NCBI GenBank assembly: GCA_016927655.1
Contig: JAFGMG010000012.1
Span: 1-40,617, forward strand
DNA from: Candidatus Dojkabacteria bacterium
GTDB lineage: Bacteria > Patescibacteriota > Dojkabacteria > B142 > JAFGMG01
Reading direction: 5' to 3'
Length of the DNA stretch: 40,617 nt
The notes under the pieces were generated by a model. It made no database searches, was not told the origin of the DNA, and worked only from the letters and a program-made list of their open reading frames with translations. The first letter of the stretch is position 1; each line of letters begins with the position of its first letter. Both the position numbers and the translations under genes were made by a program. Positions 207 to 21,387 of the stretch are shown here, piece by piece.

Positions 207-3200
207 TTAACCGCATTTTGAAAATCCGCATCCCCTGCATAGAATACATCCCTCAGCATATTCGAGATCACCTCCGCATTCCGGGCATTCCATTAGATCC
301 CCAGTCATATTTTTTGTTGTGTATTTAGAGGAAGCCTCGATTACAGGCTTTGTGGGCGCAATCGTTTCAGCAATCACAGCATCATCTGCTGCCATTTCTT
401 CGATTTCTTCAGTCTTTTCATCTTTGCTTTTTTCAAACATTTTCAATTGCTCCTTCCGTTCATTCATATGTCTTTTTATAATTTTTGCAACTGCATCTGG
501 TACAGAATATACAAATACCCCTCCCTTATTCATCGTGGGCTGACCTGATCTTATTCCTAGCAGCTGTTTTATTATCTCATCAGTTTCGATTCCAGACCTG
601 AGCCCTAATGATACCAGTCTCCCAACTGCCTCCATAAATCCAGATGTAAAACTCCCGCTTTTGCCAACTCCCTGTAAAAATATTTCAAATGGTCCTACTT
701 CATCCTCATTAATCGTTACAAAAAGTCTTCCCTGATTTGTTTCAATCTTATATGTAAATCCCTTTACGACATCAGGTCTTTCTTTTGGTGTTCTTATCTG
801 GCGTGATTCTTCTTTGACCTGTACAATTTCTTTTTTCTTTTCAGCAGTCCCAACCTGAAGTGCAGCATCTTTACTTCCGTCTCTAAACACTGTGATCCCT
901 TTGCATCCAAGATCAAATGCCAATTCATAGACTTTTGCAATATCTCGCCAGGTTGCAGAAGCTGGCAGATTAATGGTCTTTGAAACAGCACTATCAACAT
1001 ACTTCTGAAACGCTGCCTGGATTTTCACATGCTGAGCAGGCTCAATTTCATGAGTTGTCACAAATATGTCAATCACATCATCTGGAATATTGTACTTATC
1101 TTTTATTTCAGATAAATGCTTTCCGTTTGCAATGTCTTTGATTAATTCCTCGCTGTGAAACCCTCGCTCTTTTGCAATTGATTCGAATAGATGTTCAATC
1201 ACTTCCTGATCAGCGCCGCCCATAGAATTTTTCCTCCTATAACCTAGTGCAAAAATCGGCTCTATTCCAGGATTACAATTTGCGATAATACTTACACTTC
1301 CAGTTGGAGCTATCGTTGTTGTTCTTGTATTGCGCATAAATTTAATTTTTGGATTTTGAGCCCATATTGAATTTTCAAATTCAGGGAAATTCCCTTTTTC
1401 TTCGCCTAGTTCTTCGCTAGCTTCATGTGCTTTTTGCTGTATAAATTTCATGATTTTCTCAGCTGCAATTTCAGCCTCATTTGACTTGTATGAAATGCCA
1501 AGCTTTATCAGAAAGTCCGCGTAACCCATCACTCCAAGTCCTACATTCCTTGTTCGAGTAGTCATTTCTTCAATTTCTCTTATTGGATAGTTATTAATAT
1601 CTATTATATTATCCAAAAACCGCACTCCAAGCTTTGTCACTTGTTCAAGCCTTTCCCAGTCAATTGTTTTTAATTTCTCTGGTAAATCCATATCCCTTAT
1701 CTTTGGATTTTCAAGATATGGGAATCCTTTTATAAATTTCGATACGTCGATATTTCCAAGATTGCATGTCTCGTATGGTATTAGAGGCTGCTCTCCGCAT
1801 GGATTTGTACTATCCATTTTGCCAAGTTCCGGCGTTGTATTCCCTTTCTCCGCAGTATCAATAAAGAACATTCCCGGATCTCCGCTAAGCCAGGCATGTT
1901 CAGCAATTTTTTGAAATAGTTCGCGCGCTTTTATTGTTTTGCATACTTCTCTGCTGTGGGGATCAATCAACTCCCATTCCTGATCCTCTTTGACAGCCTT
2001 CATGTATTTATTCGTAATACCAACTGAGATATTGTAATGAGAAAGCCCTTCCAAATCGTCTTTAACTCGTATAAAGTGCTCAATGTTTGGATGATCTACA
2101 TTTAAAATTGCCATTGAACCTAATCCTCTTCCTCCTCGGCCCTTTATAGTATCTTGGGCACGGTTAAACATCTTCAAATATTCAATTGGACCCGCAGCTT
2201 TCTCTCCTGTTGTTTTGACAATTGCATAGGTACTGCGAATTTTTGAGAAATTAAACCCAGTACCAACCCCGCGTCTTAGCATTTGAATGTTTTGATTCAA
2301 TGCCCCAAATATAGAATCAATTGAATCGTCTATTGGCAGGACGAGGCATTTTGACATTACAGAATCAGTCCCAAGTCCAGCATATATTAAAGTCCCTCCG
2401 CTCAAAAATTCGCCTGAATTCATTATTTCAAAAAATTCTTTCTCATATCTCCTGGCTTTTCTTCCATCATATTTTGTTTCCGCCCCTGCCACATACCTTG
2501 CAATTCTTTTCCAAAGCTCATCTGGTGTTTCAATCACATTTCCATTATCGTCTTTTTTGAGTGCCCGTTTTTCTAGTACCTGATATGCATTTGGCGTTAA
2601 TTCATATGTATCTGTGTATTTAAATTCGCTTTCTTCCTTTTTCACAGATTCCACTTGTTTTTTGTCGGTACTATTTTCAAGTACCTGCATCTGCTTGCTT
2701 CCATCGCGGTAAATCGTAATTCCCTTGCAGCCGGTTTCCCAGGCTTGTATATATGATTTCCTCACATCCTCAACAGTTGCATCATTTGGAAGATTTATTG
2801 TTTTTGAAACCGCTGCATCAACAAATTTCTGTGCTGCTGATTGAATTTTTACGTGCCATTCAGGGCTTACATCATGAGTGGTGACAAATATTTTCTTTGC
2901 TTCATCTGGGACCTCATCAAGCCCTGCAAGTGAGCCGTTATTTTCAGCAATTTTCTCCATCAATTCCTTCGAGTAGAATTTGTGTTTTTTTGCATAGGCT
3001 TCGAATTGCTCGTTAACGTAGAGTAACTGCTTATGATCTTCTTTGCCGTCATCCTGGTAGAATCCCCTGTATTTATACACTAATGAAAATACCGGCTCGA
3101 TCCCGCTTGATGTGTTTGCAATCAGGCTGAGTGTGCCTGTTGGAGCAATTGAGCTCATAGTGGCATTGCGCACTTTTTTCCCTTCTTTTTCCCATTTACT

Positions 3201-4463
3201 ATTTTTAAACCCCGGAAAAGTCCCTCTATTTTTAGCAAGTGTGATTGATGCTTTTTCAGCTTCTTCCTGGACAAATTTCATTATTTTTGTTGTCAAATCA
3301 ATTGCCTCGTCGCTGTTGTATGGTATTTTCATCTCGAAAAACAATGTAGCAAGACCTACCAAACCAAGACCAAGCTTTCTTGTCTTTTCAACCTCACGCT
3401 TTATCTTTTCAAGAGGATATACGCTTAAATCGATCATATTGTCTAGAATATTTATCGCTTTGTGAGTTGAATCTTTTAGCTTGTCCCAGTCAATTTGTCC
3501 TTTTGAATCCAAATGCGATGGCAGTACAATAGATCCAAGATTGCATGATTCATAAGCTCTTAATGGCTCCTCACCGCAAGGGTTCGTCGCTTCTATCACC
3601 CCAATCTCAGGTGTCGGATTAGCTCTCTGCGCTGTATCAAGAAAAAATAATCCTGGATCCGCACATTCCCATGCGCTCTGGCATATTTTATCAAATACAT
3701 CTCTAGCTCTTAATTTATCTACCACTTCGTCATTTCTTGGGTTTATCAATTCATATTCTTCATCGTTTTTTACCGCGTTCATAAATATATCGGTAATTCC
3801 TACCGATAGATTGAAATTTCTGATTACAGATTCCCCAGACTTCAAATCAATAAAATCTAAAATATCTGGATGATTTACGTTCAAAATACCCATATTCCCA
3901 CCTCCGCGCTTTTTCCCCTGCAATATATGATCAAAAGATTGAGAATAACTTCTTATAAAATGAATCGGGCCTGCAGCTACATTTGGAGTTCCCCCGACAC
4001 TGTCACCCTTTGGACGAATATGCGAAAAATTAAATCCCGTACCTCCGTTATTTTTCTGAACTATAGCGGCTTCTTTCATTGTCTGAAAAATACTATCAAG
4101 ACCATCCTCAACGGGTAATACAAAGCATGACGCAAGCTGTCCTGTGCCATCTATATAATTTCCTGCTTCGTAAAGAACCCTAGCTCCCGGAAGAAACTTA
4201 TTTCTGCTCATCAGATCATAAAACTCTTTTGCTTTTTTGTTTATTTCAAGCATAGAAAATCCGTTTTTTCTTTCTTCAAGTGCGAAAGAAGCCGCTACTC
4301 TCCAAAACATTTCCTTTGGACCTTCAAGAAAATCGCCCTTTTCGTTTTTTAGGAAGCTGCGTTTCTTCATGATTTCAAGTGTGTTTTTGGATATATTTGG
4401 CTTCTCCAGCTCCTTTGGCGGATTTTTTATAAATTCAAGCTCGTCTTTCGTATATTTTTTCAT
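207..4463 (-). CDS. nrdJ: Class II (adenosylcobalamin) ribonucleotide reductase with two tandem catalytic barrels plus C-terminal TSCPD-like domain and Cys-rich tail
   Basis: Barrel A (~aa 20-600): LASCFV, NPCGEEPL, ESCNLGS, SIAPTGT, AVSKTIN, KGITIYRDGSK. Barrel B (~aa 621-1200): SKCLV, NPCGEQPL, ETCNLGN, TIAPTGS, AVSKTIN, KGITVFRDGSK. C-terminus CPECGG...GCILCRGCGFSKCG. No class I YY pair; no ATP cone. Confidence 0.93.
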   Translation of the reverse strand: MKKYTKDELEFIKNPPKELEKPNISKNTLEIMKKRSFLKNEKGDFLEGPKEMFWRVAASFALEERKNGFSMLEINKKAKEFYDLMSRNKFLPGARVLYEAGNYIDGTGQLASCFVLPVEDGLDSIFQTMKEAAIVQKNNGGTGFNFSHIRPKGDSVGGTPNVAAGPIHFIRSYSQSFDHILQGKKRGGGNMGILNVNHPDILDFIDLKSGESVIRNFNLSVGITDIFMNAVKNDEEYELINPRNDEVVDKLRARDVFDKICQSAWECADPGLFFLDTAQRANPTPEIGVIEATNPCGEEPLRAYESCNLGSIVLPSHLDSKGQIDWDKLKDSTHKAINILDNMIDLSVYPLEKIKREVEKTRKLGLGLVGLATLFFEMKIPYNSDEAIDLTTKIMKFVQEEAEKASITLAKNRGTFPGFKNSKWEKEGKKVRNATMSSIAPTGTLSLIANTSSGIEPVFSLVYKYRGFYQDDGKEDHKQLLYVNEQFEAYAKKHKFYSKELMEKIAENNGSLAGLDEVPDEAKKIFVTTHDVSPEWHVKIQSAAQKFVDAAVSKTINLPNDATVEDVRKSYIQAWETGCKGITIYRDGSKQMQVLENSTDKKQVESVKKEESEFKYTDTYELTPNAYQVLEKRALKKDDNGNVIETPDELWKRIARYVAGAETKYDGRKARRYEKEFFEIMNSGEFLSGGTLIYAGLGTDSVMSKCLVLPIDDSIDSIFGALNQNIQMLRRGVGTGFNFSKIRSTYAIVKTTGEKAAGPIEYLKMFNRAQDTIKGRGGRGLGSMAILNVDHPNIEHFIRVKDDLEGLSHYNISVGITNKYMKAVKEDQEWELIDPHSREVCKTIKARELFQKIAEHAWLSGDPGMFFIDTAEKGNTTPELGKMDSTNPCGEQPLIPYETCNLGNIDVSKFIKGFPYLENPKIRDMDLPEKLKTIDWERLEQVTKLGVRFLDNIIDINNYPIREIEEMTTRTRNVGLGVMGYADFLIKLGISYKSNEAEIAAEKIMKFIQQKAHEASEELGEEKGNFPEFENSIWAQNPKIKFMRNTRTTTIAPTGSVSIIANCNPGIEPIFALGYRRKNSMGGADQEVIEHLFESIAKERGFHSEELIKDIANGKHLSEIKDKYNIPDDVIDIFVTTHEIEPAQHVKIQAAFQKYVDSAVSKTINLPASATWRDIAKVYELAFDLGCKGITVFRDGSKDAALQVGTAEKKKEIVQVKEESRQIRTPKERPDVVKGFTYKIETNQGRLFVTINEDEVGPFEIFLQGVGKSGSFTSGFMEAVGRLVSLGLRSGIETDEIIKQLLGIRSGQPTMNKGGVFVYSVPDAVAKIIKRHMNERKEQLKMFEKSKDEKTEEIEEMAADDAVIAETIAPTKPVIEASSKYTTKNMTGDLMECPECGGDLEYAEGCILCRGCGFSKCG

Positions 4464-4486
4464 AAGTGTTCCTTTTGATAGATTAG

Positions 4487-4897
4487 TTATTTCCTAAATG
4501 CGGCCTTTAGAATTTCATCTGTGCCCCTGAGCAGCGGGACATTTTTCAAATTTGAGATCGGGAACCATCCGACATCAAGAATGTCATCATGATCATCCAG
4601 GTTCATCAATTTCTCGCTTTTTGTCTGGGCAATGTAGTGAATAAGTGTCAATTGTTTATCCTTCTCATATAAATAACTTTGAATTACAGGCAGCAATTTC
4701 AAATCAACAATTTTTATTCCAATTTCTTCTTTGCATCTTCTAACTAATGTTTCCTCAGGATGCTCTCCAAACTGTATAATTCCTCCCGGCAGCGCCCACT
4801 TTTTGTGAAATTTCGGGTTCGGATCATTTCTCTGCTGCAAGATCACATTATTGTTTTTTACGATAACTCCAAAGCTGCCCCATAACTGCTGTTGCAC
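4487..4897 (-). CDS. Nudix-family protein (variant Nudix box)
   Basis: WALPGG followed by GIIQFGEHPEETLVRRCKEEIGI, i.e. GX5EX7R(E>R)UXEEXGU. GTG start; an in-frame stop lies 7 codons upstream. Confidence 0.85.
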   Translation of the reverse strand: MQQQLWGSFGVIVKNNNVILQQRNDPNPKFHKKWALPGGIIQFGEHPEETLVRRCKEEIGIKIVDLKLLPVIQSYLYEKDKQLTLIHYIAQTKSEKLMNLDDHDDILDVGWFPISNLKNVPLLRGTDEILKAAFRK

Positions 4898-4994
4898 TTT
4901 GATCTGGATAAGAATTTATATTTTTCCGTTCAGTCACAACTAGTGACCCATCAGGCTTAATCGTTATTATTGTTACTTGTTTTTCGCCATTCAT
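4848..4994 (-). CDS. Possible 48-aa small ORF (or frameshifted N-terminus of the Nudix gene)
   Basis: ATG 9 nt after the nrdJ (5004) stop: MNGEKQVTIITIKPDGSLVVTERKNINSYPDQSATAVMGQLWSYRKKQ*. It fills the gap in the operon and overlaps the Nudix start by 50 nt. Confidence 0.35.
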   Translation of the reverse strand: MNGEKQVTIITIKPDGSLVVTERKNINSYPDQSATAVMGQLWSYRKKQ

Positions 4995-5003
4995 TTTTAT
5001 GAT

Positions 5004-6764
5004 CTATTTTTTTAGATTTAAAACCTGTTTGTCACGACTTTTATCTCTATAAATTGTCAAACCTTTCAGGTGTTGATCAATCGCAAGATAAAATGCTTTT
5101 TCAATATCTTCGACTGTTGATTTCTCAGGTAAATTAATTGTTTTTGAAACAGCATTATCTGTATATTTCTGAAATGCTCCCTGCATCTTTATGTGCCACT
5201 CTGGAGCAATATCATAAGAAACTACAAATATTTTTTTAATTTCTTCCGGCATTTCATCTATATTTTGCAATGTGCCTTCTTTTGCAATTTTTTCCATGAT
5301 TTCCTGCGAATACATCCAGTCCTTTTTCAGTCTTTTTTCTAATATTGCATTTGTCATTATCATTTCTGTTTCTGCTCCAACTGTTTCCATATTTTTGCGT
5401 ACATAGGCAAGTGCAAAAACCGGCTCAATTCCTCCATTTACATCTGCAACAAGTGATGTTGTGCCATTTGGTGCAATAGTTGTTACCGTTGCATTTCTCA
5501 TATGCTTGTAGCCTTTTTTGTCCCACCTGGAGCCTTTGAAATTCCCAAAATCTCCCTTTTGTTCTCCAAGCTCCTGTGATGCTTCGTGTGATTTTTCCTG
5601 GATGAATTTCATAACTTTTCTGGCAAGAACCAATGCTTCTTCGCTGTCATATGGAATTTCAAGTAAATAAAGTAAATCAGCCCAGCCCATAACTCCAATT
5701 CCCACTTTTCTGTTTCCATATTTGACCATTTGCTCAATCTCAGGTAATAAATGCTTTGAGACTGTGATTGTATTGTCTAGAAACCTAACGCCTGTTTTGA
5801 CAACGTATTCAAGTCTATCCCAGTCAATCCTGCCACCATTGTAGAATTTAGAAAGGACAACTGAACCTAAATTGCATGCCTCATATGGAAGCAGAGGCTG
5901 CTCACCGCATTGGTTTGTCGCAGTCATTTTCCCGACGTTTGGTGTTGGATTTGTACGATTTACCTCATCGATAAATATAAATCCCGGCTCTCCGCTTCTA
6001 TATATCGAATCTGTTATCTCACGAAGCAGCTTTTTTGGATCAATTTCGCGATATATTTTCCCGCCAAATTCCAGTTCAAAAGTTTTTCTTTCTTTGAGGG
6101 CCTCTACAAATTTATCTGTAATTGCAATGGAAATATTGAAATTTGTCAGCTGCGAATAATCCTGCTTTGCACTTATAAACTTCTCAATATCAGGATGATC
6201 TATCCGCAAAATTCCCATATGACCTGCATGCCTTTGAGACCCGCGGTTCATGATTGTTTCAGATGAAAAGTCGTACAACCTCATAAATGAAATTGGTCCG
6301 CTTGCTTCTCTGCCAGTTGAATGTACTTTTTCACCCTCCGGCCTGACTTCTGACCAGTCGTAGCCGATACCGGCTCCACGCCTGTGAAGAGTAGTTGTAT
6401 TTGCCAAAGTTGTATAAATTGACTCAACTGAATCATGGATAGGCATTACATAGCATGCTGCAACCAGCTCTTCGCGCCCACGATCCAGCAGACTCATACC
6501 GGATAGAAATTCAAGATTTGCCTGAATTTCATAAAAATCATCTTCAATTTTCTCTAATTCATTTTTATTTGGTGCTTTGTAGCCTTTTTTCTTGTCACTC
6601 AGATCTTTTTCTCCCGATGCAATAAATTCTGATACTCTTTTGAATAAATCCGATATACTTTCCTTTGGATTACCAGATTCGTCAACTTTTAAATATCTCT
6701 TAGCGGCAATAAATCTTGCATTCTGGCTCAAATTTGGTTTTAGTGAAAATCTACTGTTTTTCAA
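5004..6764 (-). CDS. nrdJ: Class II ribonucleotide reductase, single catalytic barrel lacking the C-terminal Cys tail (NrdJa-like)
   Basis: AACYV, NQCGEQPL, EACNLGS, TIAPNGT, DNAVSKTIN, KGLTIYRDKSR; ends at KQVLNLKK. Confidence 0.9.
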   Translation of the reverse strand: MKNSRFSLKPNLSQNARFIAAKRYLKVDESGNPKESISDLFKRVSEFIASGEKDLSDKKKGYKAPNKNELEKIEDDFYEIQANLEFLSGMSLLDRGREELVAACYVMPIHDSVESIYTTLANTTTLHRRGAGIGYDWSEVRPEGEKVHSTGREASGPISFMRLYDFSSETIMNRGSQRHAGHMGILRIDHPDIEKFISAKQDYSQLTNFNISIAITDKFVEALKERKTFELEFGGKIYREIDPKKLLREITDSIYRSGEPGFIFIDEVNRTNPTPNVGKMTATNQCGEQPLLPYEACNLGSVVLSKFYNGGRIDWDRLEYVVKTGVRFLDNTITVSKHLLPEIEQMVKYGNRKVGIGVMGWADLLYLLEIPYDSEEALVLARKVMKFIQEKSHEASQELGEQKGDFGNFKGSRWDKKGYKHMRNATVTTIAPNGTTSLVADVNGGIEPVFALAYVRKNMETVGAETEMIMTNAILEKRLKKDWMYSQEIMEKIAKEGTLQNIDEMPEEIKKIFVVSYDIAPEWHIKMQGAFQKYTDNAVSKTINLPEKSTVEDIEKAFYLAIDQHLKGLTIYRDKSRDKQVLNLKK

Positions 6765-7203
6765 GTTCGGCTATTTCTTTTTTAAAATCGTTAATTGAAT
6801 TGAAATCGCGGTAAACAGATGCGAATAGTAAATATCCAACTGAATCCAGCTTTCTAAGTCTGGTCAGCACCATCTTTCCTATATCGGTTGATTTAACCTG
6901 GGTCGTTCTTCTGTTTAACAATCTAAGCTCTATATCATCTATCAGCTCTTCAATTTGTTCGTCATTTATGGGTCTCTTTTTGACTGCCTTTAAAACACCT
7001 TTTTTTAACTTCTCTCTGTCAAATTCCTGCAATCTCCCTGATCTTTTCTCAACCATCAAAGATATATTTTGAATTCGCTCATAAGTTGTAAACCTTTTAC
7101 CACAATCCAGGCACTCCCGCCTTCTCCTTGTTGCGCTGGTTTCATCGTTATCCCTTTTATCAACTACTTTATTCTCTTTTGATTTGCAATATGGGCAAAG
7201 CAA
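6751..7203 (-). CDS. nrdR: Transcriptional repressor NrdR
   Basis: CPYC...RRRRECLDCGKRFTTYER Zn ribbon plus ATP cone (VEKRSG..EFDREKL...FASVYRDF); TTG start. Confidence 0.97.
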   Translation of the reverse strand: MLCPYCKSKENKVVDKRDNDETSATRRRRECLDCGKRFTTYERIQNISLMVEKRSGRLQEFDREKLKKGVLKAVKKRPINDEQIEELIDDIELRLLNRRTTQVKSTDIGKMVLTRLRKLDSVGYLLFASVYRDFNSINDFKKEIAELEKQ

Positions 7204-7234
7204 TGCAGCGCTTTAACATTTAATTATTAACACG

Positions 7235-7243
7235 TTATCCACA
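7235..7243 (+). promoter_or_regulatory. DnaA box
   Basis: Exact TTATCCACA in the nrdR-nrdJ leader. Confidence 0.5.
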
Positions 7244-7407
7244 CTACATACACAAATATACACCGGTTATCTACCTACTAAACACAGCATTGTGCTATTT
7301 ATTAGCACAGTATACACATTTTCCTGGTGGGAACAGACAGTAATGAAAGAAAGCAATAAAAGTGCAATTCTTTTATCAATTTTGTATGTCTGCCCCTTGC
7401 ATACAAA

Positions 7408-7455
7408 CCACAATTTCTTGTGTGTGGAAACAGACTACATAACAACTCCTTGTAT
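7408..7455. promoter_or_regulatory. Tandem NrdR boxes
   Basis: CCACAATTTCTTGTGT (7408-7423) and TAACAACTCCTTGTAT (7440-7455) resemble acaCwAtATaTwGtgt and start 32 bp apart, the usual tandem spacing. Confidence 0.75.
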
Positions 7456-7460
7456 GTCAA
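7432..7460 (-). promoter_or_regulatory. Sigma70-type promoter of the nrdR-nrdJ operon
   Basis: TTGACA (7460-7455), 17 bp, TAGTCT (7437-7432); one NrdR box lies in the spacer and the other just downstream. Confidence 0.7.
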
Positions 7461-7586
7461 GAATATTCCCAAATTAGATTTCAGGGCATTCAATTGCATG
7501 TTTCATGCATCTTGTTTTAGAAAGTTGCTCAATATTTGATATTTTTTTTCTATCTTGTAGAATAAAGATACTTTTAGAAAAGGACG

Positions 7587-13182: not shown

Positions 13183-15807
13183 CTATTTCCAAAGACTATA
13201 CTTACTTGTCAGTTCATCGATTTTATCCCGATCTCCCCAAATTCCAATCCCATAGTACTCCAATTCGTCAGAATTTTTGTCTCTTAGAACCTTATCGATA
13301 TCCTCGTCTTTCTTAACTTCAAGATGCTCAGCTAAAAATGGATACTTTATTAGGTTAGTATTTATCAACTCAGAGTTCAATTTTTTAAGAGCCTTCCCAC
13401 CAGTTTTCAAAACAACAATTGGGTACTGACCACTTCTGTCAAAGCTTTCTCCAGTTTTGGTCTTATATGGCCTTCCAGAGTGAAAATTTTCTTTATCTAT
13501 TTGGTTACCAAGATATGCAGAAATATGCCCAACAGTATTCAAGACCTTCCAGTTTTCCAGGTCTTCATTGACTACTATGACTATTTTCTTGCTCATGTCC
13601 TGATTCCCACTTTTTGCGGTAACTGCAGGTTCTTTATTACCAACGTTTTCTTGTGTGTAATCCTTCTCCCCGCTAAACTCTTTCATATTGCTAAATGTCT
13701 TTATCAGACTTTCTGCTAGCTCACCAAAGTCTATTCCAAGACCATCTATCCCCAACTGCACGTCTTCTCTGTCAATCTTTCTTGCGAAGCCTTTGTCTTT
13801 GAATTTCTTCCTGATTGATTTGACCTTCATGTCATCAAATCTTCCATCTTTCATTTTCGAATATGCATAGAGGAGCCCTGCGAACTCGTCCACTGCTAAG
13901 ATTGCATTGGCCAAAACAGTCTTCGGCATCACATCTGTGAGTTTGTATGCATGCGCAGCAACTGCATGTATCATTGCCTCCGGATATCCCCATTCCTTGA
14001 ACCACTCTAACTCTGTATTAGGATGCTCGTCTGGGTGCTTGTCAAAATCAAGATCGTGAAATAGACCAGTTATATACCACAAATTTTTATCTTCATTATA
14101 CTTTTCTGCTAGATCCTCAAGCGCAGCTCCTACCATCTTTGCATGAAGGAATTGGTATTCATCCTTGACGTATTTTTCCAGTATCTTCAAAGCGTCTCCT
14201 TTGTTTGGTAGCCCCTTTGTATCCTGACTAATTTTTGGATCATTAGTCTCTTTTTTCCCTTGAACATTTAACCCAACATACTCTTCTCCATATATCTCTT
14301 TTTGTATTTTTGTCACTGGCGAGCGTCTCATCATCGGAAAGAAAATTACGTCATCTATATATTCCGACTCAGTAAACATCATCGCCAATCTTTCAATTCC
14401 AGGGCCCAGACCAGTGGTTGGAGGCATCCCATACTCCATTGCCTCTATAAACTCTATGTCCATTGGATGTGCTTCTTCATCACCACCAAGTTTTCTGTTA
14501 TGTTGCTCTTTGAATCTCTCAAAAAGCTCGACTGGATCGTTTAATTCAGTCCAATTGTCTCCTGCTTCCATTCCCCCCATAAAAACTTCAAATCTTTCTA
14601 CAAATCTTTTGTCGCCTTCCATTCGTTTTGCAAGCGGAGAAATCTCAACAGGATGACCGTAAATAAAAACTGGCTCAATAAGATGCTCTTCAACCTTGGC
14701 TTCAAAAACTTTAAACATAGACTCTCCAATTGATTTTGGTTTTTCTTCCTGGTAGCCTATTTCGTCTAGGATTTTGTGTGCTTCATCTAAACTCTTTACC
14801 TGGTCAAAGTCATAATTCGCATATTTTTTGACTGCATCAAGCATGGTGATTTTTGCCCATGGCTTTTGCAGGTCAACTTCCTGACCCTTTATTTTGAAAT
14901 TGTATTTATCAAAAACATTTTTCGCAATATATTTATACATTTCCTCAGTCAGGTCCATATTAAACTCATAGTTCTCATATGCTGACATTGTCTCAAGAAT
15001 ATTAAATTCAGGATTATGTGTTCTATCAATCCCTTCATTTCTAAAATAGCCAACTATATTAAATACATTTTCAAAACCGGCAACTATTAATCTTTTCAGA
15101 TACAATTCGTGTGCAATCGCTAAGTAAAAATCTTCCCCAAGTGCATTCACAGTTGTCATAAAAGGTTTAGCAGAACTTCCGCCATATACAGGCTGTATGA
15201 TTGGGGTCTTTATTTCCAAAAATCCTTTTGAGTCCATAAAGGCACGAATATTAAAGAGAATTTTTGCAGCAATTTCAAACTTCTTCATTTTCTCTGGATG
15301 CATTATCATATCCAGATATCTCTGTCTAAAGAGTGTTTCTTTGTCCTTTATTCCTTGATGTTTATCCGGAAGAGGTCGAATTGCCTTTGTTAGGATTTTG
15401 AACTCCTTTACTAATAAAGATACTTCCCCGCTATTTGTCTTTGTGACTACACCTGTAGCTTGGACTATGTCGCCAACATCTATTAAATTTAGATCCGAAA
15501 ATCCAATTGTCTGCTTTTCTTTTGAAGTTTCTAACAGTTCTTCGCCTTTGATATAAAGTTGTAATTGCCCAGTTTGATCCTGAATATGACCAAAAAATAG
15601 TGCCCCATGTTCCCGCTTTGATACCAATCTGCCAGCTACAGTCAACGTTTTTCCGTCATAGCTATCATAGTCACTGACTATATCTTTGAGGTGCACATCC
15701 CTCTTTGCTTTCGAAGGATATGAGTTGATTCCAAGTTGCTTCAATTTCTCAACTTTGTCTAGTCTTTCCTGTCTGATTTGTGCGAGAGTTGAGCGCGGAT
15801 TATCCAT
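13183..15807 (-). CDS. lysS: Class II lysyl-tRNA synthetase fused to an HD-superfamily hydrolase and a DUF2000-like domain
   Basis: OB fold, RQRYLD, YFRNEGIDRTHNPEF, ELNDP, EYGMPPTTGLGPGIERL (aa 1-~495); then H..HD..H..D domain; then KKIVIVVNEDL..WKVLNTVGHISAYLG...LTSKYSLWK. Confidence 0.95.
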   Translation of the reverse strand: MDNPRSTLAQIRQERLDKVEKLKQLGINSYPSKAKRDVHLKDIVSDYDSYDGKTLTVAGRLVSKREHGALFFGHIQDQTGQLQLYIKGEELLETSKEKQTIGFSDLNLIDVGDIVQATGVVTKTNSGEVSLLVKEFKILTKAIRPLPDKHQGIKDKETLFRQRYLDMIMHPEKMKKFEIAAKILFNIRAFMDSKGFLEIKTPIIQPVYGGSSAKPFMTTVNALGEDFYLAIAHELYLKRLIVAGFENVFNIVGYFRNEGIDRTHNPEFNILETMSAYENYEFNMDLTEEMYKYIAKNVFDKYNFKIKGQEVDLQKPWAKITMLDAVKKYANYDFDQVKSLDEAHKILDEIGYQEEKPKSIGESMFKVFEAKVEEHLIEPVFIYGHPVEISPLAKRMEGDKRFVERFEVFMGGMEAGDNWTELNDPVELFERFKEQHNRKLGGDEEAHPMDIEFIEAMEYGMPPTTGLGPGIERLAMMFTESEYIDDVIFFPMMRRSPVTKIQKEIYGEEYVGLNVQGKKETNDPKISQDTKGLPNKGDALKILEKYVKDEYQFLHAKMVGAALEDLAEKYNEDKNLWYITGLFHDLDFDKHPDEHPNTELEWFKEWGYPEAMIHAVAAHAYKLTDVMPKTVLANAILAVDEFAGLLYAYSKMKDGRFDDMKVKSIRKKFKDKGFARKIDREDVQLGIDGLGIDFGELAESLIKTFSNMKEFSGEKDYTQENVGNKEPAVTAKSGNQDMSKKIVIVVNEDLENWKVLNTVGHISAYLGNQIDKENFHSGRPYKTKTGESFDRSGQYPIVVLKTGGKALKKLNSELINTNLIKYPFLAEHLEVKKDEDIDKVLRDKNSDELEYYGIGIWGDRDKIDELTSKYSLWK

Positions 15808-17565: not shown

Positions 17566-20500
17566 TTACGTGTTATTAACTAAATCAACTACCCACTCTA
17601 GATCAATTGGAACAGGGTCATATAAATCCATTATACACTGTCCATTGTCAGTTCTATAGCTTGAAACACCTTGTATTTGAGCAAGCCTATCTAGTACAAG
17701 CAAAACTTCAAATGAAAATCCTGGATTTGTTTCAATTGGACCGTATTTTTGCAGATATTCTCCAGGTCGTTCTGGATTAAATTCATAAAGCATACTACAT
17801 CCATCTAACTTTCTTGTAACGCATGCCAGCTCCTCATCAAAATTCTGCGGAGGAGTACCACAATAAACCCCGCATCCGAACACATCACTTTTGAAGCCCT
17901 TGTTTTTGAATGTTGGGTTCATTCCATTTTCTGATAGCCATATAGATACTAAAAGCTGGAATTTGATGTCATCGTGCGCTTCTTTATACATCTCGTCCAT
18001 GAACTGATTTATCTCTGGTATTGAGTAATAATCTATTTCGTTGTATGAGGCACCTAAATAATCTATATTTTTATTCGCCAGTTTCACTACCCAATTCTTT
18101 ATCTTGTTTTTGCAGCTCTCATCGCATGTGCTGATTTGAATTGGACATGTGTTTATTAATTTTTGCTGCATTTCTCCTACATTACCGTATTCAAAAATCC
18201 CTTCTGTACTTACAGCTTCCTGCGCAATTTCTAATATACGAGCACTTTGATACCCTTCTTCGCCCTCTAATGTCTCACAAACCTCAAGCCCCATGAATCT
18301 ATCCCCAGATCCTGTATATTCATTTTCATCCAAGTACGCCAAAGGATCAACTGTGCAATCAAGGCCATCATAGTCATAGCAGCCTTCGTAGCGAAGTTCG
18401 AAATGCAGATGCGGACCAGTTGAATTCCCGCTGTTTCCTGTGTATCCAATTTGATCGCCTTGTAAGACTGTATCACTAATCGCCACCGAAACAGAATTTA
18501 GATGAGCATAAACGCTGTGAAAATCACCATGATCAATTACAATCAAGCCGCCGTAGCTGCTGTCTTGATACAAACCATTCCCTATTGTCACAGTTTCTCC
18601 CGGATTTCTTGCATAAATTACTTTCCCATCTGCAACTGCAAGAAGTACAGAATTTACAGGCGTTCCTATATCAATACCCGGATGAATCGCTGCATTTGCA
18701 GACAGATAAGGTGTTACTCCATAATATTGAGTGATATTTCTACTTGTAACCGGCCATATTAAATTTACGTTACCAAGTTCTCTATCAGATACTGGAATAT
18801 CTTCCATCGGTATACATTCATTTATGCAGTATTTCGCAGTAAGAAGATCATTCTGGCAAAGCCACTGATTGAGAGGATCAACCTGATACTTCGTGCCTAG
18901 ACAGTCTGTTGTATTGATAAGTCTTATTAAAAGTTCCCTCTTCTGCTCTGACATATTTGAATTATTTTCTATACTGTCTGCTAGATCGCCTAAGTCGCTG
19001 CATGTGAAAATATTGCTAGGATTACCAAGCGTGTCCTGGACTTTTGTAATTATCTGAGATTCAGAAGAAAGATTTAGAAATGTCGTCATTAATTTCAACT
19101 CATCCTTCCTACTATTTAAATAGTCATCTTCAATAGTGTCAGTAAATATCAAACTGCTCCTTTTTGACATATTTACTATCTGGCCAAGCCACGGGATATA
19201 ATGATCTGCAGCTCCAATTGATTTGCCGGTTATCCCTCTCAAATTTTCGGTCACCGGCGCTAGTGACAGGCTTCCGTCAATCAGCTCATATTGAGTACAG
19301 CTCGCATCAGTGGAAAGTGGCTGTTTGTAATCACCTTTAAAGTTTGTTCCGTCGTATAGCTTCTTTTCAGTTTTAACTATTATTCCAGATTGATCTTTGT
19401 GAATAATTTGATATCTCCCATACCACGGATTATCCAGCAATTCTTCTTTGTACATCTGGGCAAGTGCCTGCCCTGCACCCGGTATTTCAATTTTTTCAGT
19501 TGCTACGGTTTGAGCTACTGTATTGCCGTCAATTTTTAAATACGAAGAACTGGCTCCACCGCTGGCATCTATTCTTCCTTCAGATACTGCGTCTAGATAG
19601 CCCTGTCGATCAAATTCGATCATATCATCATAAATTATGATTTCGGGCCCGATTAGATTGTCAGTATTATTTACATGGTTTATGACTCCGCCGCATCTAT
19701 ATTCATCGCCAGTTAATTCAGAGATTGTCAATTTGCTTCCACCTTCTGGGATAGGACCTGTAATTTCTTGTGTAAATGCTGAAGAGTTTGTAGCGTCAAT
19801 GCTATTATATGGCGGGAATCTTGAGTCCAATTCTCTAAGACTCATTGATTCTTCAGAATTTAGGGCCCAATAAATCATACAAGCAAGGGAATTCCCAAGT
19901 GCCGGCATTTGATAATCTGATACTTCTCCATTTTCATGTGTAATTTTTACAAGTCCAGAAAATTGCGCAGCAAGATTAAACTGGCTTGACATTTGTTTAT
20001 CGAACGCACAAGGAGGAAGAAATGGATTTTCATTTGTGCCTGGATAATCCGCTGTGTCATAAAGATTGCTGCTACCCATCCAGTTTAGAAGAGAGAAACC
20101 CGTAATTTGCTGCGTAATGACTGCTCTTGCACTATAACCGCCTAGATCATTTGACTTCATACTTACTCCAGCAAATACATCATCGTATTTGCCCCTGGCT
20201 TGTCCTGATGGGGTAGTGTTTACTCTCTCGCATGATTCAAGGGAAGGATAGTCCGAAACAGCGGAAAGCTTGCACGAATAATCAGACGTTGTCTCGGCTG
20301 TTCGAGCAGAGCATTGTTCAAATAAATACGCCCAGACCTCAGAGCTTATGCTTAAATTTTCGTTTCCAGAGTTGCTTCCTCGCCAGCCCCAGGGAGAAAA
20401 AATATAAACACCATCAATCTTATCCAAATTTGCATTTACAAAACCCAGCAAATTTTCTGCATAGCCATCAATATCTGGTGCTTGATTAATCTGATTAGCT

Positions 20501-21387
20501 CCAAATATTGTGTATTTAACATCTGTTATTCCTTTATCAGCTAAAATCTGTTCATACTTCGCAAACATTGTTGCAAAATTGTCGGCATGACCTGCGCTTT
20601 CTGTATCATATTGAATACTTAAGCCGAAATTAGCAAAATCACTTGCACTTCCTGCCAACTGACCATTCCCATCTCCAAAGTAATTACCTGTGAATTCTGA
20701 AATATAGTTTGCGTTGTTTGGATTGTGATAATTAAATGCTGGGAACACCAAATAATCAACTGTGTTGCTTATCTCTGGGTTATCGTTTGCCTTGAGGCCG
20801 TCTACGACTTCTTTTAGCCATTTCGAACCATCAATCGGAGCATTATCTCCATATTTCCATGCAAGTTCTGTTCTTGGTTCATTTACCGGCATTACTTGAA
20901 TATCTACACCAAGATTGCTTGTCACTTCTATGATAGTTGATATCTTTCTAATCGCATCGGCAGCTTCAAATACATTTGGCTCCTCACCATACCCAAGCCT
21001 AAATAGATGGACTGATTTACCTGATGGAAGTTTTGCAGCCTCGATTATCTGCGATTCTGATGTCCCTGGCAATACAGCTGTACCTACAACTGCTAATCTC
21101 GTTTCATTGTAATAGGCTGCATATGAGTCCCCCGCAGGGACAGATGTCTCAACCCCAGTCTCCAACCCCAAAACGTCGCATGCGCTTGTCTTGTTTTCGA
21201 TTCCGCGGACTTCTCCTGCATATTTCCTTGTGACTTCCTGATCTTCTGCTCTTTGCTTTGCAATAAATATGCTCGCTAGAGCGATGGTTGTTACTCCAAT
21301 AAGCAGGAAAAACGCGAGACGATTATTTTCCTTCGAGGGACTGTTTTTCATTATTCTCATTCTAGAGAAGTTTGACTCAATTGACAA
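17566..21387 (-). CDS. Large membrane-anchored, Cys-rich extracellular protein with M23 peptidase domain
   Basis: N-terminal TM; WPV..RNITQYYG, HPGIDIG (HxxxD), YAHL, GNSGNSTGPHLHFE (HxH), VDPLAYL. The true start may be a slightly downstream Met. Confidence 0.85.
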   Translation of the reverse strand: MSIESNFSRMRIMKNSPSKENNRLAFFLLIGVTTIALASIFIAKQRAEDQEVTRKYAGEVRGIENKTSACDVLGLETGVETSVPAGDSYAAYYNETRLAVVGTAVLPGTSESQIIEAAKLPSGKSVHLFRLGYGEEPNVFEAADAIRKISTIIEVTSNLGVDIQVMPVNEPRTELAWKYGDNAPIDGSKWLKEVVDGLKANDNPEISNTVDYLVFPAFNYHNPNNANYISEFTGNYFGDGNGQLAGSASDFANFGLSIQYDTESAGHADNFATMFAKYEQILADKGITDVKYTIFGANQINQAPDIDGYAENLLGFVNANLDKIDGVYIFSPWGWRGSNSGNENLSISSEVWAYLFEQCSARTAETTSDYSCKLSAVSDYPSLESCERVNTTPSGQARGKYDDVFAGVSMKSNDLGGYSARAVITQQITGFSLLNWMGSSNLYDTADYPGTNENPFLPPCAFDKQMSSQFNLAAQFSGLVKITHENGEVSDYQMPALGNSLACMIYWALNSEESMSLRELDSRFPPYNSIDATNSSAFTQEITGPIPEGGSKLTISELTGDEYRCGGVINHVNNTDNLIGPEIIIYDDMIEFDRQGYLDAVSEGRIDASGGASSSYLKIDGNTVAQTVATEKIEIPGAGQALAQMYKEELLDNPWYGRYQIIHKDQSGIIVKTEKKLYDGTNFKGDYKQPLSTDASCTQYELIDGSLSLAPVTENLRGITGKSIGAADHYIPWLGQIVNMSKRSSLIFTDTIEDDYLNSRKDELKLMTTFLNLSSESQIITKVQDTLGNPSNIFTCSDLGDLADSIENNSNMSEQKRELLIRLINTTDCLGTKYQVDPLNQWLCQNDLLTAKYCINECIPMEDIPVSDRELGNVNLIWPVTSRNITQYYGVTPYLSANAAIHPGIDIGTPVNSVLLAVADGKVIYARNPGETVTIGNGLYQDSSYGGLIVIDHGDFHSVYAHLNSVSVAISDTVLQGDQIGYTGNSGNSTGPHLHFELRYEGCYDYDGLDCTVDPLAYLDENEYTGSGDRFMGLEVCETLEGEEGYQSARILEIAQEAVSTEGIFEYGNVGEMQQKLINTCPIQISTCDESCKNKIKNWVVKLANKNIDYLGASYNEIDYYSIPEINQFMDEMYKEAHDDIKFQLLVSIWLSENGMNPTFKNKGFKSDVFGCGVYCGTPPQNFDEELACVTRKLDGCSMLYEFNPERPGEYLQKYGPIETNPGFSFEVLLVLDRLAQIQGVSSYRTDNGQCIMDLYDPVPIDLEWVVDLVNNT

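What the first reader, a model, noticed from the sequence alone, without database searches (positions are those of the whole stretch)
207..7203. Operon with three class II RNR catalytic barrels (one stand-alone, two fused in tandem)
Seen: nrdR > NrdJ-C (586 aa) > Nudix > NrdJ-A+B (1418 aa). All three barrels keep the thiyl-radical finger (NPCGE, NPCGE, NQCGE), both redox cysteines (xCxV and xCNLG) and the IAP(T/N)G and SKTIN motifs, so none looks like a decaying copy, and they are well diverged from each other. Known: one allosteric RNR normally reduces all four nucleotides, and dimeric NrdJ builds its specificity site at the dimer interface. Inference: A+B is a covalent pseudo-heterodimer, possibly joined by C, forming a multi-barrel RNR with division of labour. 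I know of no described equivalent.
Basis: partly seen in the sequence, partly recalled or inferred. Interest (0 to 1): 0.92.

Follow-up and report, generated by a model that had tools for sequence, protein, structure and literature searches.

The report
Three-barrel B12 ribonucleotide reductase operon
A tiny-genome bacterium carries an operon with three intact copies of the catalytic core of the B12-dependent enzyme that makes DNA building blocks, two of them fused into one protein, an arrangement shared by many related bacteria and not found described in the papers searched.

Summary
On the minus strand lie nrdR (6751-7203), NrdJ-C (5004-6764, 586 aa), a Nudix gene (4487-4897) and one 1418-aa ORF (207-4463) with two complete class II RNR units, A and B. 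B alone carries an IscU-like/TSCPD domain and a six-cysteine zinc-finger tail.

The fusion is not a chimera. 118 of 119 listed homologues carry two finger motifs. All five catalytic residues are invariant in both barrels in 116 of 116 full-length sequences, and A and B are equally conserved. The C + A-B cluster is present in 18 of 18 relatives that have a complete A-B. Orthologues also occur unfused (C|A|B) and with a Ham1 ITPase domain in the linker.

The 0.9-Mb Patescibacteria genome has a fourth NrdJ (D, with an ATP-cone) and no class I or class III RNR. B and C are sister paralogues, and A belongs to another NrdJ lineage.

The proposed covalent pseudo-heterodimer is plausible but not shown: AlphaFold2 folded each barrel confidently but not their mutual placement (pTM 0.57). 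The division of labour among the barrels is untested. Eight literature searches found no description of tandem barrels. I rate it a new variant of a known enzyme, of high interest.

The parts
6751..7203 (-). nrdR, the transcriptional regulator of RNR genes (150 aa). It overlaps the start of NrdJ-C by 14 nt.
   Evidence: Pfam Zn_ribbon_NrdR + ATP-cone. TIGR00244 scores 164.9 bits against a cut-off of 124.65. An NrdR gene lies upstream of C in 15 of 17 related loci.
5004..6764 (-). NrdJ-C: a stand-alone class II RNR unit (586 aa). Finger motif NQCGE at residues 284-288, with the thiyl Cys at 286. It has no TSCPD domain, no C-terminal cysteines and no ATP-cone.
   Evidence: Catalytic residues are kept in 16/16 orthologues. 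C is the sister clade of B (FastTree support 0.95; SH-aLRT 92.6).
4487..4897 (-). Nudix hydrolase gene (136 aa) between C and A-B.
   Evidence: PF00293 scores 70.1 bits. The MutT equivalog scores only 49.8 bits against a cut-off of 97.9. Nudix genes sit at the same place in L007 and L008 (BLAST) and in L012 and L014 (Pfam).
2673..4463 (-). Barrel A of the fused protein (residues 1-597): lgN + lgC, NPCGE at 294-298 with the thiyl Cys at 296, redox Cys at 113 and 307. It has no tail of its own.
   Evidence: The A clade is supported at 0.98-0.998 (FastTree) and 96.4 (SH-aLRT).
2604..2672 (-). A-B linker (residues ~598-620). It is variable and predicted to be disordered.
   Evidence: pLDDT is below 50 at model residues 582-596, which are protein residues 598-612. 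Mean pairwise identity is 30%, against 59% in the barrels. 17 of 116 homologues carry an insert that lengthens the linker region by about 200 aa (237-248 against 41-96 residues). The insert is Ham1 in 2 of 4 proteins scanned, and 13 of the 17 carry precomputed PF01725.
816..2603 (-). Barrel B of the fused protein (residues 621-1216): lgN + lgC, NPCGE at 887-891 with the thiyl Cys at 889, redox Cys at 706 and 900.
   Evidence: Residues 617-1418 match the NF006417 (PRK08665) equivalog end to end.
465..755 (-). TSCPD / IscU-like domain of B (residues 1237-1333), without the cluster-binding cysteines.
   Evidence: PF12637 scores 69.9 bits. Burnim et al. 2022 describe this domain in long class II C-termini.
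210..287 (-). Six-cysteine zinc-finger end of B (residues 1393-1418). It is the only redox-shuttle tail in the operon.
   Evidence: Seen in the translation. It is conserved in nearly all homologues listed. The function of such tails was shown by Loderer et al. 2017.
7204..7586 (-). Upstream non-coding region, the probable promoter and operator of the operon (inferred).
   Evidence: It is a divergent intergenic region before a Mur-ligase gene on the plus strand. There is one weak NrdR-box-like site at 7408-7423, not above chance. The promoter scan was not above shuffles.

Best explanation
This is a genuine, selectively maintained, multi-paralogue class II (adenosylcobalamin) ribonucleotide reductase module of Patescibacteria.

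What is shown: three dimer-type NrdJ catalytic units (C, A, B) are encoded in a fixed order behind nrdR, usually with a Nudix hydrolase gene. A and B belong to different NrdJ lineages and are translated as one polypeptide. All three active sites are intact. Only B carries the IscU-like domain and the six-cysteine zinc-finger tail that returns electrons to the active-site disulfide.

Working model (inferred): the barrels act in a hetero-oligomer. A pairs with B through the usual RNR dimer interface, either within one chain or across two chains, which creates two non-equivalent specificity sites. The single tail on B re-reduces the tail-less active site of A, and possibly that of C. Paralogue-specific loop 2 sequences give each barrel its own effector-to-substrate coupling. 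On this model the fusion fixes a 1:1 stoichiometry and keeps A within reach of the tail. The Nudix gene, and the Ham1 domain in some lineages, add dNTP-pool cleaning.
For: 1. Reality of the fusion. It is one ORF. 118 of 119 listed homologues (46-76% identity) from many assemblies have two finger motifs. A second assembly bridges the linker.

2. Selection. The five catalytic residues are invariant in both barrels in 116/116 sequences. A and B are equally conserved (59% against 59% mean pairwise identity; 122/577 against 132/580 near-invariant columns), while the linker is at 30%. C keeps them in 16/16 and D in 4/4.

3. Class II identity. The NrdJ_Z equivalog is above its cut-off. The best structural match is T. 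maritima NrdJ with TM 0.82-0.84. The genome has no NrdB and no NrdD and has a PduO-type adenosyltransferase.

4. Dimer type. There is no loop-1 insertion relative to T. maritima NrdJ. The D141 and R171 equivalents are invariant in all four paralogues.

5. The genes travel together. C and A-B are found together in 17 of 17 fetched loci and in 18 of 18 relatives with a complete A-B. The same orthologues also occur as three separate adjacent genes in G169 and G051, or with Ham1 in the linker. This is the fused-versus-split pattern of functionally linked proteins.

6. Tail logic. In S. nassauensis NrdJd a tail on one subunit can reduce another subunit's active site. A separately expressed tail does not restore activity.

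7. Loop 2 is different in each paralogue and conserved within each.
Against: - AlphaFold2 of residues 17-1216 with an 83-row alignment folded both barrels (pLDDT 89.6) but gave pTM 0.57. That is the value expected when the two halves are not placed relative to each other. So there is no structural support for an A:B interface.
- In Loderer et al. the trans electron transfer was weak in the plain dimer (3-7% of wild type) and strong only in higher oligomers.
- Unfused B orthologues in G169 and G051 lack the tail, so the tail-sharing argument does not hold everywhere.
- In A the K158 equivalent is K in 73, Q in 26 and W in 17 of 116 sequences, so A's effector pocket may be degenerate in some lineages.
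- Nothing here shows that C touches A-B.
- No expression or activity data exist.
- The roles of D141, K158, R171 and the loop 2 residues are recalled from the T. maritima structural work. Only their numbering was checked here.
Confidence: 0.5

Rival explanations
1. The fusion is only a co-expression and tethering device. Each barrel pairs with its own kind (A:A' and B:B' between two chains, and C:C), giving independent isozymes with no heterotypic cross-talk.
For: - AlphaFold2 found no confident A:B packing.
- A and B come from different NrdJ lineages, each of which also exists as a stand-alone gene elsewhere.
- The linker is long, disordered and tolerates an insert of about 200 aa, so it does not constrain geometry.
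Against: - The fixed gene order C-A-B and strict co-occurrence are more than expected for redundant isozymes in genomes of about 1 Mb.
- A and C lack any redox tail.
Confidence: 0.25
2. The paralogues are specialised for different conditions or cofactors rather than for different substrates. Examples are different cobamides scavenged from hosts, NDP versus NTP substrates, or different reductants. They need not associate.
For: - These organisms cannot be seen to make B12, yet they keep an adenosyltransferase.
- D differs from A, B and C in the phosphate-binding IAPTG region and alone has an ATP-cone.
- Tail-less NrdJs with an unknown reductant are common.
Against: - It does not explain why A and B are fused in most lineages.
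- No cofactor-site analysis could be done here.
Confidence: 0.12
3. One or two barrels are no longer enzymes. They serve as regulatory or scaffolding partners of the one active barrel, as Rnr4 does for Rnr2 in yeast (recalled).
For: - In A, the lysine equivalent to K158 is replaced by Q or W in 43 of 116 sequences.
- Loop 1 of B reads RS.Y instead of RPKG.
Against: - All five catalytic residues are invariant in every barrel over sequences down to 46% identity.
- The barrels have equal conservation.
- The NF005401 'ribonucleotide reductase-like protein' model scores below its cut-off: 534 and 226 bits against 906.
Confidence: 0.06
4. Assembly chimera, or a sequencing error that joins two genes.
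For: The gene ends 206 nt from the contig end.
Against: - 118 of 119 listed homologues from other assemblies show the same fusion.
- 17 related loci have it.
- A second assembler bridges the joint without differences.
Confidence: 0.01

Closest known systems
Dimeric class II RNR NrdJ of Thermotoga maritima (PDB 1XJE, 3O0O and related entries)
   Same: - The fold matches with TM 0.82-0.84 at about 36% identity.
- The catalytic residues C134, N320, C322, E324 and C333 are the same.
- It has the same short loop 1, so it is the dimer type.
   Different: - The T. maritima enzyme has one barrel per chain and forms a homodimer.
- Here two different barrels are joined in one chain, and a third is encoded in the same operon.
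- Loop 2 of B and of C departs from the T. maritima sequence.
[quoted passage not shown] 2017, PMC5704485), and genomes with two NrdJd of which only one has that domain
   Same: - B has the same kind of tail, with six terminal cysteines after a folded domain.
- The paper shows electron transfer between subunits. It also notes Frankia and Alphaproteobacteria with a tail-bearing and a tail-less NrdJd.
   Different: - Those are separate genes, and the paper does not report that they are fused or form a conserved triad (passages and sections 5 and 10 read; supplements not seen).
- Here the tail-less A is covalently joined to the tail-bearing B.
Split class II RNR NrdJa + NrdJb of Pseudomonas aeruginosa (PMC4520616, search listing only; described)
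   Same: It is a class II RNR whose catalytic part and tail part have an unusual gene structure.
   Different: It is the opposite event. In P. aeruginosa one enzyme is cut into a barrel and a tail. Here two complete barrels are joined.
Monomeric class II RTPR of Lactobacillus leichmannii (recalled; NrdJm)
   Same: A single chain that supplies by itself what a dimer normally supplies for specificity regulation.
   Different: - RTPR does this with an insertion that mimics the partner's helices, not with a second full barrel.
- The TIGR02505 RTPR model scores 94 and 66 bits against a cut-off of 340, so this is not a member.
Heterodimers of RNR paralogues in yeast (Rnr1/Rnr3 large subunits, Rnr2/Rnr4 small subunits; recalled, abstract of PMC6545439 seen)
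   Same: Paralogous RNR subunits that work as heterotypic pairs.
   Different: They are class I, eukaryotic and unfused. Rnr4 is catalytically dead, whereas all barrels here keep their catalytic residues.

Membership tests
Class II RNR (NrdJ), dimer type | Ten-stranded alpha/beta barrel with an N-terminal all-alpha domain | tested here: met
   PF00317 + PF02867 occur twice in A-B and once in C. The AlphaFold2 model has pLDDT 89.6, and its best PDB matches are T. maritima NrdJ chains with TM 0.82-0.84.
Class II RNR (NrdJ), dimer type | Finger-loop thiyl cysteine, with Asn and Glu, and the redox cysteine pair | tested here: met
   Numbering was mapped on T. maritima NrdJ. The residues are invariant in A 116/116, B 116/116, C 16/16 and D 4/4.
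Class II RNR (NrdJ), dimer type | Curated NrdJ sequence model above its cut-off | tested here: met
   TIGR02504 scores 1239 bits (A-B) and 588 bits (C) against a cut-off of 399.95. NF006417 scores 1666 bits against 961 for A-B. C alone scores 712.5 bits, below 961, because it lacks the tail.
Class II RNR (NrdJ), dimer type | Adenosylcobalamin as radical generator | not testable with these tools
   Indirect only. No NrdB and no NrdD were found in the 97%-complete genome, and a PduO-type adenosyltransferase is present. Cobalamin-contact residues were not examined.
Class II RNR (NrdJ), dimer type | Specificity site at a dimer interface (short loop 1, effector-phosphate ligands) | tested here: inconclusive
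   There is no loop-1 insertion, and the D141 and R171 equivalents are invariant in all paralogues. The K158 equivalent is variable in A. The roles of these residues are recalled. Which barrel pairs with which was not resolved (pTM 0.57).
Class II RNR (NrdJ), dimer type | C-terminal cysteine shuttle for re-reduction | tested here: inconclusive
   Met for B, which has TSCPD plus six cysteines. Not met for A and C, which have no C-terminal cysteines. Tail-less NrdJs are known.
Monomeric class II RTPR (NrdJm) | RTPR sequence model and a dimer-mimicking insertion | tested here: not met
   TIGR02505 scores 94.3 and 65.6 bits against a cut-off of 340. There is no insertion at loop 1.
Split NrdJa+b | Barrel and tail encoded by separate genes | tested here: not met
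   The tail is fused to B. A and C are complete barrels, not fragments.
Ribonucleotide reductase-like protein (NF005401) | Curated model above its cut-off | tested here: not met
   533.7 and 226.1 bits against a cut-off of 906.
NrdR regulon | NrdR gene and NrdR boxes upstream of nrd genes | tested here: inconclusive
   The NrdR gene is present, with TIGR00244 above its cut-off. The box search, using a consensus recalled from memory, gave one site with 3 mismatches at 7408-7423. Overall there were fewer hits than in shuffles: 3 against a mean of 12.7.
MutT (8-oxo-dGTPase) | MutT equivalog model above its cut-off | tested here: not met
   TIGR00586 scores 49.8 bits against a cut-off of 97.9. Only the general NUDIX domain is met.

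The most novel reading that the evidence does not exclude
C, A and B (with D where present) form an obligate hetero-oligomeric RNR. Its non-identical active sites and specificity sites split the four substrates among barrels, and one shared cysteine-rich tail recycles them all. This would be a way of balancing dNTP pools different from the one-enzyme, four-substrate allostery of all RNRs characterised so far. It may have evolved in host-dependent bacteria and archaea that live on salvaged, unbalanced nucleotides.
Probability: 0.2. Interest if true: 0.9.

Novelty: new variant of a known kind. Interest (0 to 1): 0.72.

Why it matters
RNR is the only de novo route to DNA precursors. Its catalytic subunit has always been described as one barrel per chain that handles all four substrates through allostery at a symmetric dimer interface.

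A natural, conserved chain with two different but fully intact barrels would be a ready-made asymmetric RNR. Each active site, each specificity site and the single redox tail can be mutated independently. That would make three long-standing questions directly testable:
- half-site reactivity,
- which subunit's effector controls which active site,
- how far a tail reaches.

It also bears on the biology of ultra-small symbionts. A 0.9-Mb genome spends about 1% of its DNA on four NrdJ barrels and keeps them under strong selection. This suggests that dNTP supply from salvaged ribonucleotides is a central constraint for these organisms.

Tried and rejected
**Complex prediction.** I ran A core (model residues 88-574) against B core (681-1189) with alignments. 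The verdict was 'no answer' (score 0.00, controls not run). I do not use it for or against binding.

**Expression.** No RNA holder was listed. The two metatranscriptome runs of the same study held next to none of the sampled words and nothing was laid. This says nothing on expression.

**Triple fusion.** The genome search listed a 2118-aa 'open frame' with three barrels in G063. Reading the DNA showed TAA stops between a 731-aa gene and a 1373-aa A-B gene, so it is not a triple fusion. Likewise the '1234' and '1295' frames of G169 and G189 are separate genes. No protein longer than 1668 aa appeared among the 120 best of 7996 scored.

**NrdR boxes and signals.** The NrdR-box scan with a recalled consensus was not above chance. 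Promoter and terminator scans were at or below shuffles.

**Trees.** I replaced it with IQ-TREE -fast with SH-aLRT. A's sister group differs between FastTree (P0230 + first barrel of P0124, 0.93) and IQ-TREE, so I treat it as unresolved. Before the trees I took every fourth fused homologue (29 of 116). For one search I took 62 of 259 rows.

**Literature.** Searches returned nothing on tandem RNR barrels. The search was badly designed and returned mostly irrelevant papers. Burnim et al. 2022 (PMC9669993, passages and section 8; bioRxiv version, passages) use 'tandem' only for ATP-cones. Supplements were closed.

**Not done.** I did not analyse cobalamin-contact residues, dN/dS (synonymous sites are saturated at these distances) or residue co-variation between A and B (too few sequences).

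Full report
**What is there.** The first 7.2 kb of the window hold four minus-strand ORFs:
- 6751-7203 (150 aa)
- 5004-6764 (586 aa)
- 4487-4897 (136 aa)
- 207-4463 (1418 aa) (translations)

Pfam and NCBIfam identify them as NrdR, a class II RNR catalytic unit ('C'), a Nudix hydrolase, and a protein with two complete class II RNR units ('A', residues 1-597; 'B', residues 621-1216). In the last protein, B is followed by a TSCPD domain (1237-1333) and a terminal six-cysteine array.

The curated NrdJ_Z equivalog is passed by both RNR proteins (1239 and 588 bits, cut-off 400). A, B and C are 40-42% identical in protein, and only short patches align at the DNA level. They are therefore old paralogues, not a recent duplication.

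nrdR overlaps C by 14 nt. The gap between C and Nudix is 106 nt, and between Nudix and A-B it is 23 nt. No terminator-like site lies between the genes on the coding strand. This fits one operon, although the scans themselves were not above chance.

**Is the fusion real?** Yes.
- A search with the 1418-aa protein listed 119 homologues (46-76% identity, mostly about 99% coverage, 1370-1670 aa) from many different assemblies. Where a source names them, they are called Dojkabacteria/WS6, Kerfeldbacteria, Parcubacteria or 'Patescibacteria group'.
- 118 of the 119 have two N-x-C-G-E finger motifs. The exception is a 1031-aa fragment.
- A second assembly of the probable source run has one contig covering 207-5168 with no differences, bridging the linker. 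It is not an independent sample.

**Are the barrels under selection?** I mapped the catalytic residues on T. maritima NrdJ through an HMMER alignment: C134, N320, C322, E324 and C333.
- In an alignment of 116 full-length fused sequences (the window's and 115 homologues), all five are invariant in A and in B.
- Mean pairwise identity is 59% for A, 59% for B, 63% for TSCPD and 30% for the linker.
- 122 of 577 columns in A and 132 of 580 in B are at least 95% conserved.
- The same five residues are kept in 16/16 C and 4/4 D sequences.

No barrel looks relaxed.

**Genome context.** The window is contig 14 of a 908-kb, 97%-complete genome.
- A fourth barrel ('D', 733 aa) lies on contig 10. It has an ATP-cone, a barrel with NVCGE and a cysteine-rich end, but no TSCPD.
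- The genome has no class I small subunit and no class III enzyme.
- It has a PduO-type ATP:cob(I)alamin adenosyltransferase.
- All ribonucleotide reduction in this organism should therefore go through these four NrdJ barrels.
- The neighbours in the window are housekeeping genes: Mur ligase, ClpB, HisRS, MnmA and a MacB-type transporter. The operon is therefore chromosomal, not on a mobile element.

**Distribution and fusion states.**
- Among 41 relatives, 35 have an RNR barrel.
- The window's own genome and 17 of these relatives have a complete double-barrel frame. In all 18, a 580-617-aa barrel ORF lies just upstream.
- I fetched the 17 related loci. All 17 have C followed by A-B, and 15 of 17 have nrdR in front.
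- A Nudix gene lies between C and A-B in L007 and L008 (BLAST) and in L012 and L014 (Pfam). Five more loci have an ORF of the same size and place that I did not scan.
- 17 of the 116 aligned sequences carry an insert that lengthens the linker region by about 200 aa (237-248 against 41-96 residues). It is a Ham1/ITPase domain in 2 of 4 proteins I scanned, and 13 of the 17 carry precomputed PF01725.
- In an even sample of 201 genomes of the phylum, 141 have a barrel. At least 8 have clusters of three or more barrels: the window's genome, G051, G063, G126, G128, G161, G169 and G189. This is a lower bound, because 22 matches were not listed.

Read out, the clusters from the phylum census are:
- C | A-B in the window's genome and G161, and in G128 with a frameshift in A
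- a 731-aa barrel | A-B in G063
- C | A | B as three genes in G169 and G051
- C | A | D' | D in G126 and G189

Pairs or triples of NrdJ genes also occur in another Patescibacteria MAG, a Beckwithbacteria MAG and DPANN archaea (6 of 80 loci).

**Phylogeny.** I aligned barrel-only sequences to an HMM and built trees.
- FastTree (228 and 259 sequences) and IQ-TREE -fast (62 sequences) agree that A, B, C and D are each monophyletic. FastTree supports are 0.98-1.0. SH-aLRT values are 96.4, 99.8, 91.3 and 100.
- B and C are sister groups (0.95; 92.6), and A lies outside B+C.
- Unfused A and B orthologues nest inside the A and B clades. Fusion or fission has therefore happened more than once.
- A's nearest relatives are unresolved. 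One analysis places a 571-aa barrel-only NrdJ next to it, whose relatives occur in Elusimicrobia, WOR-3 and archaeal MAGs. The other analysis does not.

**Clues to mechanism.**
- *Dimer type.* All four paralogues are of the dimer type. They have no loop-1 insertion relative to T. maritima NrdJ. They keep the D141 and R171 equivalents, which, as I recall from the T. maritima structures, hold the effector's phosphates.
- *K158 equivalent.* It is R or K in B (114/116), C and D. In A it is K in 73, Q in 26 and W in 17 of 116 sequences.
- *Loop 2.* This is the element that couples effector to substrate. It is distinct in each paralogue and conserved within each. A stays closest to T. maritima (Q-G-x-K-R). 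B is glycine-rich (K/R-G-G-R). C has N-R-G-x-x-R-H-A-G-H, invariant in 16/16 at most positions. D has R-Q-Q-G-R-Y-E-S.
- *Redox tails.* Only B and D have the terminal cysteine array. Loderer et al. (PMC5704485; abstract, sections 5 and 10, passages) showed that this array delivers electrons to the active site. They showed that it can serve another subunit's active site, strongly in higher oligomers and weakly (3-7%) in the dimer. They showed that a separately expressed tail does not restore activity. They also note that some Frankia and Alphaproteobacteria have two NrdJd of which only one has the tail.
- *TSCPD.* Burnim et al. (PMC9669993, section 8) describe the TSCPD region as an IscU-like domain and suggest that it mediates oligomerisation.

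**Structure prediction.** AlphaFold2 on residues 17-1216 with an 83-row alignment gave mean pLDDT 89.6 and a disordered linker (protein residues 598-612). The pTM was 0.57, which is what two well-folded halves without a defined mutual position give. The best PDB matches are T. maritima NrdJ chains (TM 0.82-0.84 on the target). The fold is therefore confirmed, and the pseudo-dimer geometry is neither supported nor excluded.

**Reading.** The following are shown:
- a real, conserved, selectively maintained three-barrel (four with D) class II RNR system
- a natural fusion of two non-identical catalytic subunits
- a single redox tail in the operon
- paralogue-specific loop 2 sequences
- a recurrent association with nucleotide-cleaning hydrolases

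The following are inferred:
- that A and B share a dimer interface
- that B's tail recycles A (and perhaps C)
- that the barrels differ in specificity regulation

The main rival is homotypic pairing with the fusion serving only co-expression. Regulatory pseudo-enzymes and an artefact are unlikely.

**Novelty.** The enzyme family, its tail, tail-less paralogues and the split form are known. I did not find a tandem fusion of two whole catalytic barrels, or a conserved C-A-B triad, in eight full-text searches. I also did not find it in the two most relevant papers on RNR architecture. Their supplements and RNRdb could not be consulted. Public annotations name these proteins simply as adenosylcobalamin-dependent RNR. 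I rate it a new variant of a known kind, with high interest for RNR enzymology and for the biology of ultra-small symbionts.

Noticed in passing
G000:C10, locus L004 844-3045 (minus): A fourth NrdJ ('D', 733 aa) in the same genome. It has an N-terminal ATP-cone, a barrel with NVCGE, a cysteine-rich end and no TSCPD. Its phosphate-binding region reads LPPSSG instead of IAPTG. In G126, G189, G051 and G169, D-like genes lie directly beside the C-A(-B) cluster.
   Followed up: partly
P0019 residues 620-805; P0071 residues 602-788 (homologues): In about 1600-aa relatives, a Ham1/ITPase domain sits in the A-B linker. This makes a three-enzyme chain: barrel, nucleotide-cleaning hydrolase, barrel.
   Followed up: partly
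window 13183-15807 (minus): An 874-aa protein combines a class II aminoacyl-tRNA synthetase core (D/K/N type, with an OB anticodon domain) with an HD domain and a C-terminal DUF2000. This looks like an unusual fusion.
   Followed up: no
L012 6463-6915 and same-sized ORFs in L013, L015-L018, L020, L021: A roughly 150-aa ORF with no Pfam match recurs between C and the Nudix gene in related operons. It is absent from the window's operon.
   Followed up: no
L032 7533-11924; L033 4510-9851; L053 4892-9707: DPANN and other archaeal MAGs (Aenigmarchaeota, Woesearchaeota, a Methanobacteriota-labelled MAG) also carry two adjacent NrdJ genes of different lineages. In L053, one gene shows no N-x-C-x-E finger motif.
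   Followed up: partly
L113 2737-4449; L109 4296-8881: The B-type gene of G051 has an in-frame TAA. The A part of the fused gene in G128 is frameshifted. These could be assembly errors or decaying copies.
   Followed up: no
representatives P0124-P0272: Many NrdJ representatives are interrupted by large insertions at three recurring barrel positions (about HMM positions 119, 161 and 273, the last at the finger loop). This is the pattern expected for inteins.
   Followed up: no
G063:C1 (L107 2808-9155): The 'open_frame_aa' of 2118 reported by the genome search spans two genes separated by TAA stops. That column can overstate ORF length.
   Followed up: yes
window 7408-7423: The single best match (3 mismatches) to a recalled NrdR-box consensus lies upstream of nrdR. 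The window as a whole has fewer such matches than shuffled sequence, so it is only a hint.
   Followed up: partly
window 17566-21387 (minus): A 1273-aa protein whose only recognised domain is an M23 peptidase near residues 901-1002. The rest is unassigned.
   Followed up: no
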